Origin: Escherichia coli
GTDB lineage: Bacteria; Pseudomonadota; Gammaproteobacteria; Enterobacterales; Enterobacteriaceae
Length of the DNA stretch: 64,000 nt
Reading direction: 5' to 3' (one strand)
Assembly (NCBI RefSeq): GCF_041248615.1
Contig: NZ_CP158426.1
Position numbers: made by a program. Below, in pieces: positions 19,901 through 22,900 of this stretch. The first letter of the stretch is position 1. Each line of letters starts with the position of its first letter.

Positions 19901-22900
19901 TATCTGCTATGAATTTTCCAAATGCCCCAGTTCCGAGCGAAGATGCGATTTGAGCACTAGTCGCAAGATGACCAATAGAATTTCTCTGGTCGTCATCAAT
20001 AAAGCCCATCCCTTTCTGAACGCTTTCAAATTCTTCTGGATACTCAGAAATAAGACTGCGCATTTTGTTTCTGTCTCCAGACTCAAAAGCCCCGGCATAT
20101 GCTTTCTGAAACTCTGCTTTACGCTGTTGTTGACGTGCCTGCTGATTAATCTCAGCAACGCCTCTTAGCCCCTGTAGCGCCATTAAACCTACGTTTGGCT
20201 GCTGCTGATACTGCACAGGCTGAGGAACGGAAGAACGAGGAGCATTATCATTTTGCGGTGCCATGCTAGGCAGCCCGCCAAGTTGCCATGTCGCCATTAG
20301 AATCCAAGCCCCCCAACAAGACCAATAAGCCCACCACCAATAGCGCCGGCCGCAGTTCCTATTCCAGGAACAACGGAACCAAGTTGCGCACCCGCTAAAG
20401 CGCCTGATGCTGCCCCACCAATACCACGCGCAAGACTGGATGGCTGCTGCGCCTGACCTGCACGAATAGCGCCAAGCCCCTGCAAGAGTTGTCCGGTATT
20501 ATTGGCGTAGTTTTGCCCTGCCGTTGCCTGCCCTGATGCCGCATTCATCCCGACATTTAGCAGGTTTCCATAATTTTGCATTTGCCCACTAAGCCAATTG
20601 TTATAAAGCATGGGCGCAATGGAAGATAACTGGTTACTGGTAGCTGTTGAGCCAAGCCCCCCGGTAGCTTCTGCTGAGACAAGGTTCTGATAACGGGCCT
20701 GATCTGCCTGTGTTTTATATAAACCAGAACCAAAGAAATCATTCGCGGCTTTATTCTGCCCTTCCAGAGTCATCAGTCCTTGTAGTTGTTGTAAAGCAGG
20801 CAATCCGACTTCTGCATACGGCTTGAGATTATTCATCACCGTATTCCACTGCTCGCGCTGCAAATCAATTGCCTGCTGCTGGGCCTTCGCCTGAGCTTTA
20901 GAGGCACCACCATCACCGCCTTTTTCGTATACGGCACGATTGAGATGTTTATGAGCTATATGGGTAATTAACATTCGCTGAATTCCTTATATTGTTGCCG
21001 AGTTAACTGATAAAGCGTTACGCCGACGGGTTTACCACATCTGATATAAGCATCATCAAGGTGACCAACACGGGTAGCGCCAAGCAAACGGATAATTGCC
21101 CGTCCGTATTTCGTGGTGTCAGGAACCATAGTGATGCTGTTAAGGAATGGTGAGTTTTCGAGAAGCCATTTGCAGAATAATCGATGCCCTTGCAGTGCAT
21201 ATTCACCACGGAATCCGGGGTCGTACACCGCATGGCATTCAACAATGCTATGCCAGAAGTTACGCACTTCATGAACGCCAGCCAGCACCAATCCTTCGTA
21301 GATGCCGAGATATACCGCATCAGGCTTGATGTAGTACGTGTGCCCCGGCTCAACAATATTTTCGGTATTGCCAGGATCGTTAAGAAAGGCCTGTAATCGC
21401 ACAGGGTTATCAATAAATTTTAGTTCCATGCGATGCCATCCATTTTCACATACAGCCTGCCAGCGCCTTATCTATTAACCCTCGAGCAATTTCATGCAGA
21501 GTTGGCGCTACTCCAATTCCTGATTTTTTACGCTGCTCTTCCTGAATTTTCTTTATCGCTTCCATTTGCTTCTCACTTATCAATACCGGCTTTACTGAAA
21601 TAGCCATAACGCCCCCTTAGAACTGTATAAAACAACAGTTATTATAGTTTCACAAATCGCAATATTCATCATCGTAATTGCAAAATATGAAACAGATAGC
21701 ACAAAAAAATGCCACCGCTCAGTAGCTGGTGGCATCGTTCTGTGTGTCAGGTTTTGACAGGTTTTTTATGGACTCTAAAAACTATATTTATGGTGTCGCA
21801 TTACCCTTCACGGCAGGCGCTTTTCAGTTCTGCCCTTGCTTCTGGCTCCATTGGTAATTTGATTCGCGATCAGCTATGCGGATGGTTTGCTGAACAGGCA
21901 TAACAACTTCTCAGTGGCTGTTTTCTGAACTACGAAAATTTCGTAGTGCTCACTTTCAAAAACGTCACGCCCTTGTACACAGGATTTTACGAAAGTCTCG
22001 TAAAACACTCTCTGATGCCAGCCAGGTGTTGTGCGCATCAATTCAGTCACATTGTGTTGGTTCAAAATACCGTGTTGTTGGTTCAGTGTTGGTTCAATAA
22101 AAAGAATAAAATCCTTATAAAACAATACTCTTTACAAATTGAACCAACTGAACCAACTGAACCAACACCTTTTCTACGCACATGAAGAAGCTCATTCTTC
22201 AGATGAGTTATAATCTCCTGGCTGGTAATTGAGTACATAAACGTTTATTTGTCGTCCCTGAATACGTGGTGATTTTCTTTGGTATCCACGACCGCTGTTT
22301 GGTGGGGTTAGCATCCCGGCTTTTTTCAACACTTCAGCAAACTGTTTTGCGTTGAAACCACATGCGATCTCCTTTTCAAATGTGGCCGGGAATGTGTAGA
22401 AAATCATTGGGCTTTCGTCATGTTCTCCACGCTGACGGTATCCGGCTAAATCTTTGATGGGCAAATCTGCCGGGCTGTATGGAAATGGTGCAAAACGGCT
22501 AAGCCCATAGGCATTAAGAAATGCCTCCGTTTGTTCAATAATCTGCTGATGCTCTTTGTTACCTGTGCCGAACTCGCGCAACCATGCGTTATAGCTGTGC
22601 TGTATCGCATCACGGCATGTCTGAGCATCCCAGCCTGTTACAACCTCGCCTAACAACAATGCGGCCTCCAGAATGGCAAATCGCGCGGCTACACGGTGAA
22701 CCTGCTCACCATAATCGGATGGGATCAGGCTTCTCCATCTGCTTTCGCAGTCACGAACGGTTTTAATAGCCTGTTGCTGGTGGTCTGCCAGCCATTTAAT
22801 CCACTCACGCCCGGACGCGCCGTGGTGATGCTGGTAAGCGTCTTTCAGTGCGTCTGCGTGCTGTTTTCCGTTCTGGTAATCGTGAAAGCGTACTGCTTTA

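What the first reader, a model, noticed from the sequence alone, without database searches (positions are those of the whole stretch)
22056..22169. Iteron array immediately 3' of the primase gene: putative island replication origin
Three direct GTTGGTTCA units, an AT-rich spacer of about 40 bp, then three inverted TGAACCAAC units. Placement just downstream of the primase-helicase matches the usual ori position in satellites and PICIs, with the AT-rich spacer as a candidate unwinding element.
Basis: seen in the sequence. Interest (0 to 1): 0.5.

Follow-up and report, generated by a model that had tools for sequence, protein, structure and literature searches.

The report
Satellite island replication origin, split in two
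The repeat cluster is real and is very probably one half of the replication origin of a phage-satellite island in E. coli; this is a known kind of origin, but here its second half lies 8.3 kb away, on the far side of genes captured from a helper phage.

Summary
Observation confirmed. GTTGGTTCA occurs at 22056, 22077 and 22088 (+). A 43-bp AT-rich spacer follows, then three tandem TGAACCAAC at 22140-22166, ending 25 nt from the stop of a 919-aa Zn-ribbon/Toprim/DUF927 primase-helicase on the minus strand. The 9-mer occurs 14 times in the window against 0.49 expected.

The origin reading is supported by comparison, not by experiment.
- The host element is a ~19-kb PICI-type satellite at the yicC-dinD site, which already holds a described PICI.
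- In 45 of 48 related loci from about 30 genera, an array of the same geometry starts a median 27 nt after the primase stop.
- There are eight iteron classes. Each goes with its own motif in the last ~30 residues of the primase.

In about 25 relatives the two units are adjacent (~280 bp). In the window and about 11 other loci they are separated by 0.5-8.8 kb of cargo. The distal unit always carries the same iteron class as the proximal one.

Verdict: a new member of the known PICI/SaPI origin type, with a different initiator family from the one tested E. coli PICI. The split arrangement recalls P4 ori/crr and has not been tested.

The parts
22056..22166 (.). Origin unit A, the reported array: three spaced iterons, an AT-rich spacer and three tandem inverted iterons, next to the primase stop.
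   Evidence: The same geometry follows the primase stop in 45 of 48 related loci.
22056..22096 (+). Spaced iteron set of unit A: GTTGGTTCA at 22056, 22077 and 22088.
   Evidence: In primase orientation these are the conserved copies at +96, +107 and +128 after the stop.
22097..22139 (.). 43-bp AT-rich spacer, the candidate DNA-unwinding element. Its core TTGTTTTATAAGGATTTTATT is partly conserved across genera and across iteron classes.
   Evidence: GC is 22-26% in 50-bp windows. Across 45 loci the median spacer is 45 bp (7-mer core measure) and 79% AT. Alignment A3 shows the conserved core.
22140..22166 (-). Tandem iteron triple of unit A: TGAACCAAC three times on the + strand at 9-bp spacing, 25 nt from the primase stop.
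   Evidence: These are the conserved copies at +27, +36 and +45 after the stop in relatives.
22192..24951 (-). Primase-helicase, the putative initiator. Zn ribbon at residues 35-70, Toprim at 222-319, DUF927 helicase region at 366-644 with a P-loop (AGKTT, residues 563-567), and a C-terminal region 645-919 with no Pfam match.
   Evidence: Pfam. PHROG 1139 'DNA primase'. RefSeq name 'TOPRIM and DUF927 domain-containing protein'. PDB 8tch 'Pathogenicity island protein', E=1.4e-11 over residues 403-814. P4 alpha 33% identity over residues 8-362.
22261..22278 (-). Codons 892-897 (RKSPRI), the candidate iteron-specificity determinant in the C-terminal beta-hairpin ('wing').
   Evidence: Five of the only seven alignment columns that perfectly separate CCAAC-class primases (n=20) from GACAAC-class primases (n=7) fall at 892-895 and 897. 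Every iteron class has its own motif here.
13767..13887 (.). Origin unit B, an inverted copy of unit A. Tandem triple GTTGGTTCA at 13767, 13776 and 13785; AT-rich spacer; three spaced TGAACCAAC at 13837, 13858 and 13879. It shares 45 identical bp with unit A (tctttacaaat, the triple, acctttt).
   Evidence: Homologous B units occur next to unit A or 0.5-8.8 kb from it in relatives, always with the same iteron class as unit A.
13443..13730 (-). perC-family gene directly downstream of unit B. A TATAAT (13749-13744, minus strand) lies 17 nt from the tandem triple.
   Evidence: Sequence, ORF and translation, RefSeq annotation. A conserved 'cttatatata' follows the B triple in eight other loci.
13990..21607 (.). 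Cargo between the two origin units. It holds a 53-aa ORF, P22-type gp14/gp7/gp20/gp16 homologues (16771-21429, minus strand), a 155-aa ORF, an AbiD/F-like ORF (14460-15482, minus strand) and a 146-aa ORF (13990-14430, + strand).
   Evidence: PHROG matches. The cargo differs in other split loci, where it holds a tape measure protein or a lytic tail protein.
21695..21726 (-). Terminator-like hairpin with a T-run about 330 nt beyond unit A. It is the likely real end of the primase transcript.
   Evidence: (I1).

Best explanation
The array is the primase-proximal unit (unit A) of the replication origin of a ~19-kb PICI-type phage satellite integrated between yicC and dinD.

Proposed mechanism.
1. 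After induction, the island's 919-aa primase-helicase recognises the 9-bp iterons through its extreme C-terminal domain. A beta-hairpin around residues 886-905 carries the specificity. This step is inferred.
2. Protein bound to the two oppositely oriented iteron sets melts the 43-bp AT-rich spacer between them. This is inferred by analogy with SaPI Rep.
3. Helicase hexamers load themselves, and the N-terminal Zn-ribbon/Toprim primase makes the primers. This is inferred.

A second, inverted unit (B, 13767-13887) carries the same iterons and the same type of spacer. In many relatives A and B are adjacent, forming one ~280-bp origin. In this island they are separated by 8.3 kb of captured helper-phage late genes.

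Unit B probably acts as a second loading site or as a crr-like cis element. Its tandem triple also overlaps the -35 position of the perC promoter, so it may link initiator occupancy to downstream transcription.

Shown by sequence: the anatomy, the position, the conservation and the covariation. Not shown: binding, melting and replication.
For: - The array is far above chance: 14 copies against 0.49 expected, 12 of them in two clusters.
- It starts 25 nt after the primase stop.
- The element has PICI organisation and sits at the att site of the published PICI EcCIRM13514.
- Published origins of SaPIs and Gram-negative PICIs have this layout. The EcCICFT073 pri-ori segment replicates (PMC6092414). 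SaPI Rep binds iterons through a C-terminal winged-helix domain (PMC9371898).
- In 45 of 48 related loci, an array with both orientations begins a median 27 nt after the stop (range 7-48). The spacer is a median 45 bp and 79% AT.
- Eight iteron classes occupy the same register (alignment A3). All copies within a locus change together.
- Each class pairs with a distinct C-terminal motif, for example RKSPRI with CCAAC and GRV-RE with GACAAC. Only 7 of about 930 columns separate these two classes perfectly, and 5 of them are residues 892-897.
- The helicase region is homologous to PDB 8tch, 'Pathogenicity island protein'.
- The model of residues 640-919 best matches the SCCmec Cch self-loading helicase, 5dgk.
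- Neighbouring PICIs with unrelated primases have other iterons at the same place: TGTTCACC in EcCIRM13514 and TGTCTACC in EcCICFT073.
- Recombination breakpoints in E. coli genomes fall at the left edge of the array, so array and primase travel as one module.
- Unit B carries the same iteron class as unit A in other classes too: L058 (TGGGATAA) and L036 (AACCGAC).
Against: - There is no experimental test for this initiator family. The one tested E. coli PICI initiator shows no BLASTP similarity to it.
- The covariation is a correlation on a phylogeny. The GACAAC class may be a single clade.
- Both AlphaFold models are of low confidence (pLDDT 58 and 53), so the winged-helix assignment is weak.
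- hhalign finds no similarity to the origin-binding C-terminus of P4 alpha.
- Two related loci, L042 and L056, have no array after the gene. L051 has one copy in each orientation, below the three-copy criterion.
- The inverted repeats would also form a strong RNA or DNA hairpin.
- Nothing shows which of units A and B is the start site, or whether both are needed.
Confidence: 0.8

Rival explanations
1. The repeats are operators rather than an origin. A DNA-binding protein, either the primase C-terminal domain acting as a regulator or the 146-aa ribbon-helix-helix-like protein, binds both arrays to control flanking promoters, possibly by looping.
For: The tandem triple of unit B sits 17 nt upstream of a TATAAT that precedes perC. 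A 'cttatatata' element follows the B triple in eight loci from other genera. The 146-aa ORF lies just inside unit B in the window and in L015, L016 and L019.
Against: Unit A abuts the 3' end of the primase gene and has no downstream gene in the matching orientation. The consensus promoter scan finds no promoter at either array. Most loci with arrays have no orf146 homologue, and orf146 has its own repeats at 13941-13974. A conserved AT-rich spacer between convergent sites at a fixed distance from the initiator gene is the signature of an origin. A regulatory role for unit B could exist alongside the origin role.
Confidence: 0.1
2. The inverted repeats matter as RNA. They form a long stem-loop at the 3' end of the primase mRNA that terminates or stabilises the transcript.
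For: The minus-strand transcript of 22040-22195 folds at -51.5 kcal/mol, z = -6.0 against shuffles.
Against: No U-tract follows the stem. A canonical terminator-like site lies about 330 nt further on, at 21726-21695. The two arms have different internal spacing (9/9 against 11/21), so the stem needs 2- and 12-nt bulges. A hairpin does not explain tandem direct triplets, the second copy upstream of perC, or the covariation with the protein C-terminus. There is no Rfam match.
Confidence: 0.04
3. The two arrays are the inverted terminal repeats or recombination sites of a mobile or invertible 8.3-kb cassette carrying the captured late genes. They are not replication elements.
For: The two units are inverted and share 45 identical bp. 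They bracket variable cargo. Recombination breakpoints in E. coli genomes coincide with the array edges.
Against: In about 25 relatives the two units are adjacent with nothing between them. No transposase or invertase lies in the cargo. The repeats track the primase allele, not the cargo. No inverted-cargo junction appeared among the listed E. coli hits, but this was not searched for systematically.
Confidence: 0.05

Closest known systems
Gram-negative PICI origins (EcCICFT073, EcCIRM13514; Fillol-Salom et al. 2018, PMC6092414)
   Same: The element type and gene order are the same, and EcCIRM13514 uses the same att site (yicC-dinD). The origin lies immediately 3' of the primase, with two oppositely oriented iteron sets around an AT-rich segment.
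   Different: The initiator family differs. The window has Zn-ribbon/Toprim/DUF927 (919 aa). EcCICFT073 has a 584-aa 'DNA primase family protein' with no BLASTP similarity. The iterons differ: GTTGGTTCA against TGTCTACC or TGTTCACC. The window's origin has a second unit 8.3 kb away. I did not find this described in the text and supplement passages I searched; the paper's figures were not available.
SaPI origins and Rep/PriRep self-loading helicases (Ubeda et al.; Qiao et al. 2022, PMC9371898)
   Same: The origin lies immediately downstream of rep, with 6-12 short iterons, at least two on each side of an AT-rich centre and pointing in opposite directions. The C-terminal domain of the helicase-initiator reads the iterons. 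The helicase region is homologous to a staphylococcal 'Pathogenicity island protein' structure, 8tch.
   Different: The window's iterons are 9 bp, not 5-6 bp. The host is Gram-negative. Primase and helicase are fused with a P4-alpha-like N-terminus. The origin is duplicated and inverted, and here it is split by cargo.
Phage P4 ori and crr with the alpha protein
   Same: The N-terminal primase is 33% identical to alpha. P4 crr lies immediately 3' of alpha and is built from tandem pairs at 9-bp spacing facing inverted copies across a ~36-bp gap. A second iteron cluster, ori, lies 4.5 kb away (P4 record annotation). That both P4 elements are required in cis is from my own knowledge (Flensburg and Calendar 1987; Ziegelin et al. 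1993-95).
   Different: The iteron sequence differs (TGTTCACC in P4). There is no detectable similarity between the C-terminal domains. The helicase domain is DUF927 type. In P4 the second cluster lies upstream of the alpha operon. Here it lies further downstream, and in many relatives it is contiguous with the first unit.
SCCmec Cch helicase (PDB 5dgk)
   Same: It is the best structural match of the model of residues 640-919 (Foldseek E=1.7e-3, 222 columns). From my own knowledge, Cch is a self-loading helicase of a staphylococcal mobile element and a relative of SaPI Rep.
   Different: The model is of low confidence (pLDDT 58). No iteron origin is established for Cch. Sequence identity is about 16%.

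Membership tests
PICI/SaPI-type replication origin | It lies immediately 3' of the rep or pri-rep gene. | tested here: met
   The array ends 25 nt from the primase stop. The same is true in 45 of 48 relatives, with the first copy a median 27 nt after the stop.
PICI/SaPI-type replication origin | There are two sets of short iterons in opposite orientation, at least two on each side, flanking an AT-rich region. | tested here: met
   Three plus three exact 9-mers flank a 43-bp segment that sits in windows of 22-26% GC.
PICI/SaPI-type replication origin | The iterons are specific to the cognate initiator and are read by its C-terminal domain. | tested here: inconclusive
   Eight iteron classes each pair with a distinct C-terminal motif, and residues 892-897 separate two of the classes. 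This is covariation only. No binding assay exists, and the winged-helix fold was not confidently modelled.
PICI/SaPI-type replication origin | The pri-rep-ori segment drives autonomous replication. | not testable with these tools
   This needs the plasmid maintenance assay used for EcCICFT073.
PICI/SaPI-type replication origin | The host element is a PICI: int, alpA-like regulator, replication module, a PICI-specific att site and a size of about 10-20 kb. | tested here: met
   The order is int, HTH, AntA/Bro, primase, perC between yicC and dinD, spanning about 19 kb. EcCIRM13514 uses the same site. A C4 immunity RNA lies in the Bro zone, as described in PMC10111431. Induction by a helper phage was not tested.
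P4 ori/crr bipartite origin | The initiator is an alpha-type primase-helicase. | tested here: inconclusive
   The N-terminal primase part is homologous (33% identity over residues 8-362). There is no similarity in the C-terminal domain. The helicase is DUF927 type.
P4 ori/crr bipartite origin | It uses the type-1 iteron TGTTCACC. | tested here: not met
   The iteron here is GTTGGTTCA. TGTTCACC does occur in the neighbouring PICI EcCIRM13514.
P4 ori/crr bipartite origin | Two separate cis elements kilobases apart carry the same iteron, and both are required. | tested here: inconclusive
   Two clusters lie 8.3 kb apart. The requirement cannot be tested here. About 11 relatives show unit A alone within the sequence available, up to 10 kb, which argues that B is dispensable.
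Iteron plasmid origins (RepA/pi/TrfA type) | Tandem direct 17-22-bp iterons are bound by a WH1-WH2 Rep protein, with DnaA boxes and DnaB loading by the host. | tested here: not met
   The iterons are 9 bp and occur in both orientations. The initiator is a primase-helicase fusion. No Rep_3 or RepA domain was found.
Intrinsic transcription terminator | A GC-rich hairpin is followed directly by a U-run. | tested here: not met
   The scan finds no terminator at the array. The nearest minus-strand site is at 21726-21695. The hairpin has no U tail.

The most novel reading that the evidence does not exclude
The origin of this satellite family is inherently bipartite: two inverted initiator-loading units.

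The junction between the two units would be the preferred landing site for late genes captured from helper phages: ejection proteins, tape measure proteins and lytic tail proteins. In split elements both units would still be used. The distal unit would act like P4 crr, either as a looping enhancer or as a second helicase-loading site. It would also place the promoter of the downstream perC operon under initiator control.

If so, these satellites would replicate from two origins that bracket their cargo, and origin architecture would explain where new genes enter satellites.
Probability: 0.35. Interest if true: 0.6.

Novelty: new member of a known kind. Interest (0 to 1): 0.4.

Why it matters
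The result assigns an origin and a probable initiator-specificity determinant (residues ~892-897) to a replication module present in several hundred E. coli genomes and in about 30 enterobacterial genera. That module has not been tested experimentally. The eight initiator/iteron pairs found here form a natural specificity series. It could be used to test how SF3-type self-loading helicases read DNA, and to predict which co-resident satellites are compatible.

The split arrangement raises a concrete question: do PICI-type satellites, like P4, use two cis elements? It also points to a defined place where helper late genes enter these islands.

Tried and rejected
- Megablast of the region against phage genomes gave only one trivial 39-bp hit. 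The element is chromosomal and is not a sequenced phage.
- The published att core of EcCIRM13514 (GAGCAGATTCAA) is absent from the window. The att repeat here is an imperfect TTATTCrATATTCTGrATCTG at about 12975 and 32190.
- hhalign of the C-terminal alignment against P4 alpha found no similarity.
- A profile search of PDB with the C-terminal alignment recovered only 8tch, weakly, over the helical part and not the last 100 residues.
- Both AlphaFold2 models were of low confidence: residues 640-919 gave pLDDT 58 and residues 805-919 gave pLDDT 53. The secondary structure (beta-beta-helix-helix-beta-beta) fits a winged helix, but I do not claim the fold. I did not run a fold search on the second model.
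- The sigma-70 consensus scan found no promoter at either array. The perC promoter idea rests only on a TATAAT seen in the sequence.
- Rfam has no match at either array.
- The idea that the 146-aa protein binds the iterons was rejected, because most loci with arrays lack it.
- Array-only hits in E. coli (H83-H85) turned out to be unit B of degraded islands whose primase 3' end and unit A are deleted. They are not arrays associated with some other gene.
- Literature searches for the primary P4 crr papers and for the paper describing PDB 8tch found nothing usable in the library.
- I did not test a packaging-site (pac/cos) reading. Nothing in the anatomy suggests it.
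Full report
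**Observation.** GTTGGTTCA lies at 22056, 22077 and 22088 on the + strand. A 43-bp segment follows (22097-22139), then three strictly tandem TGAACCAAC at 22140, 22149 and 22158. The exact 9-mer occurs 14 times in the window. Dinucleotide-preserving shuffles expect 0.49, with a maximum of 4. The spacer lies in 50-bp windows of 22-26% GC, against 42-56% around it. The array ends 25 nt from the stop codon of a 919-aa ORF on the minus strand (22192-24951).

**Context.** The region is 100% identical to E. coli chromosomes, where the ORF is annotated 'TOPRIM and DUF927 domain-containing protein'. It belongs to an island of about 19 kb between dinD and yicC, with imperfect att repeats near 12975 and 32190. 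Read along the minus strand, the gene order is:
- integrase, a 216-aa ORF and an AlpA-like HTH;
- AntA/Bro, DUF4222 and Ash-family proteins, with a C4 antisense RNA and isrK;
- small ORFs, the primase and the array;
- a 53-aa ORF and P22-type gp14/gp7/gp20/gp16 homologues;
- an AbiD/F-like gene, a 146-aa ORF on the other strand, and perC.

This is the Integration/Bro/Replication/Late layout described for Gram-negative PICIs (PMC10111431). The yicC-dinD site is the att site of the published PICI EcCIRM13514 (PMC6092414 supplement; L002).

**The protein.** Pfam finds a primase Zn ribbon (residues 35-70), Toprim (222-319) and DUF927 (366-644). It finds nothing in residues 645-919. The N-terminus is 33% identical to P4 alpha. 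Residues 403-814 match PDB 8tch, deposited as 'Pathogenicity island protein' (E=1.4e-11). The P-loop is intact (AGKTT at 563-567, seen).

**A second array.** Six of the remaining eight copies of the 9-mer form a cluster at 13767-13887. It has a tandem triple at 13767, 13776 and 13785 (+), an AT-rich spacer, and three spaced copies on the other strand at 13837, 13858 and 13879. Its reverse complement aligns with the reported array and shares 45 identical bases with it: tctttacaaat, the triple, then acctttt. I call the reported array unit A and this one unit B. They are inverted copies 8.3 kb apart. The tandem triples face outward, towards the primase and towards perC. The cargo genes lie between them.

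**Related loci.** A scan of one genome per species with the primase returned 64 loci. I analysed 47 of them, plus the window, by script. In 45 of these 48, a repeated 7-9-mer in both orientations begins a median 27 nt after the primase stop (range 7-48). The gap between the oppositely oriented sets is a median 45 bp and 79% AT. The register is nearly fixed: copies at +27, +36 and +45, then at +96, +107 and +128 (alignment A3).

The repeated word differs between loci:
- TGAACCAAC in the majority;
- TGAGACAAC in L003, L008-L010, L014, L032 and L044;
- TGAACCGAC in L018, L037 and L046;
- AAACCGACC in L036;
- ACGGGTTA in L013;
- GTGGGTTA in L045;
- TGGGCTAA in L041;
- TGGGATAA in L048, L050, L051 and L058.

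All copies within a locus change together. L042 and L056 have no array. L051 has only one copy in each orientation within 200 nt.

**Covariation with the primase.** Each iteron class goes with its own motif in the last ~30 residues. Examples are ...GRGYQRKSPRIxGRQINVYVL with CCAAC...GRGYQGRVREDGRQIRVYVL with GACAAC...RYKRKALKRIGGKQHTFYIL with ACGGGTTA and ...WQIRTPRLKHLNNARPWTYVL with TGGGATAA. In an alignment of 32 full-length proteins, only seven columns perfectly separate the 20 CCAAC proteins from the 7 GACAAC proteins. Five of the seven are residues 892-895 and 897. Elsewhere the two groups are as similar to each other as CCAAC proteins are among themselves.

L018 is otherwise a close relative of the CCAAC class. 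It differs there by S894T and N-to-T, and its iteron differs by one base (CCGAC). This is the pattern expected if the C-terminal hairpin reads the iteron. It remains a correlation on a tree.

The AlphaFold models are of low confidence (pLDDT 58 and 53). Their secondary structure (strand-strand-helix-helix-strand-strand) is compatible with a winged helix. The best Foldseek match of the longer model is the SCCmec Cch helicase, 5dgk (E=1.7e-3). hhalign sees no relation to the C-terminus of P4 alpha.

**Other PICIs at the same position.** EcCIRM13514 has a different primase, followed by at least 10 copies of TGTTCACC in both orientations. This is the P4 type-1 repeat. EcCICFT073, whose pri-ori segment was shown to replicate, has TGTCTACC/GGTAGACA right after its primase. 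That primase shows no BLASTP similarity to the window's. So initiator and iterons are exchanged together as a module. In E. coli genomes the homology breakpoints fall at the left edge of the array, at query positions 410-456 of window:21600-22700. They also fall within or at the edge of unit B.

**Contiguous, split and single origins.**
- In about 25 loci, unit B follows unit A directly, giving one ~280-bp element. Examples are L003, L004, L006, L020, L027, L035 and L040.
- In the window and about 11 other loci, B lies 0.5-8.8 kb downstream: L011, L015, L016, L019, L024, L029, L036, L049, L053, L057 and L058.
- In about 11 loci, only A is seen within the sequence available, up to 10 kb.

B has the same iteron class as A in the split loci of other classes: L058 (TGGGATAA) and L036 (AACCGAC). 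Both units are therefore tied to the same binding protein.

On the A side, the window stays homologous to contiguous origins up to about +170, where the next iteron would begin.

The cargo differs between genera. It repeatedly contains DNA-delivery proteins of helper phages: ejection proteins here, tape measure proteins in L057, L016 and L011, and a lytic tail protein in L019. Capture of late genes in this zone is already described. I did not find their placement between two origin units described in the papers I read.

**Rivals.**
- A purely regulatory role fits unit B. A TATAAT lies 17 nt from the triple, ahead of perC, and a 'cttatatata' element is conserved there in eight other loci. It does not fit unit A, which abuts the 3' end of a gene. 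The consensus scan finds no promoter at either array.
- The 146-aa protein is absent from most loci that have arrays, and it has its own repeats (13941-13974).
- An RNA hairpin is possible thermodynamically (-51.5 kcal/mol, z=-6). It lacks a U-tract, needs bulges, and does not explain the tandem triplets, unit B or the protein covariation. A terminator-like site lies about 330 nt further on.
- A mobile-cassette reading is contradicted by the many loci in which the two units are adjacent.

**Comparison and verdict.** The array works like the SaPI/PICI origin and meets every sequence-level criterion of that class. Binding and replication are untested. It also resembles P4 crr in position and grammar. 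It is not a member of the P4 system, because the iteron and the C-terminal domain differ.

I rate it a new member of a known kind: a PICI origin for an initiator family that has not been tested. The split arrangement with an inverted second unit is the one unexpected feature, and its function is open.

Noticed in passing
window 16771-21429 (minus strand); L057:16234-18912; L016:14632-18042; L011:14439-16193; L019:16258-18012: The satellite carries full-length homologues of P22 gp14, gp7, gp20 and gp16 (ejection proteins). At the same position, related islands in other genera carry a tail tape measure protein or a lytic tail protein. This family seems to keep its own copy of the helper's DNA-delivery proteins. 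Late-gene capture by PICIs is published (PMC10111431). I did not see this specific bias described.
   Followed up: partly
window 27370-27558 (minus strand): Rfam finds a C4 antisense RNA (80 bits) and isrK (63 bits) inside the ORF annotated 'ash family protein'. This is a P1/P7-type immunity RNA in the Bro zone of the island.
   Followed up: no
window 21931-21945 and 21988-22002: Two copies of a 15-bp palindrome, TACGAAAATTTCGTA and TACGAAAGTCTCGTA, lie 57 bp apart between unit A and the terminator. They may be an operator for the late-gene operon.
   Followed up: no
window 13941-13974: Overlapping GTATAAC / GTTATAC / GGTATAC repeats lie just upstream of the 146-aa ORF, whose N-terminus looks like a ribbon-helix-helix. 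Homologues in L015, L016, L019 and L011 have GTAAGACA direct repeats at the same place. This is probably that protein's own operator.
   Followed up: partly
window 14460-15482 (minus strand): A 340-aa ORF matches PHROG 2158, 'abortive infection resistance protein' (E=2e-56). At this position strain 21AR0303 (L001), which is identical across the primase region, has an ImmA/IrrE peptidase and a hypothetical gene instead. This looks like a variable defence slot inside the cargo.
   Followed up: no
L002:10057-10300 (EcCIRM13514): The origin of this published PICI uses TGTTCACC, which is identical to the type-1 repeat of phage P4 ori/crr. This suggests cross-recognition or incompatibility between this PICI and P4-like satellites.
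   Followed up: no
L070 (NZ_CP010137.1 3802414-3816524): This is a degraded copy of the island. The primase is truncated and fused to an acyltransferase fragment. Unit A is deleted, and unit B and perC are retained.
   Followed up: partly
L031 (Yersinia pekkanenii), -5735..-5477, -1153..-895 and +28..+316 relative to the primase stop: There are three separate TGAACCAAC arrays in one locus. One lies within the stretch matched by the primase, and the tblastn match is about 1.1 kb longer than elsewhere. This may be a duplication or an insertion in the replication module.
   Followed up: no
L006 (CACSKA010000004.1, titled Chryseobacterium sp. 18061): A contig labelled Chryseobacterium carries a 78%-identical enterobacterial-type island with GTTGGTTCA iterons. 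This is probably assembly contamination or mislabelling.
   Followed up: no
window 22167-22191 and the same position in alignment A3: A short motif, TC(A/T)CATG(C/T)G, between the primase stop and the first iteron is conserved across genera and iteron classes. Its function is unknown.
   Followed up: no
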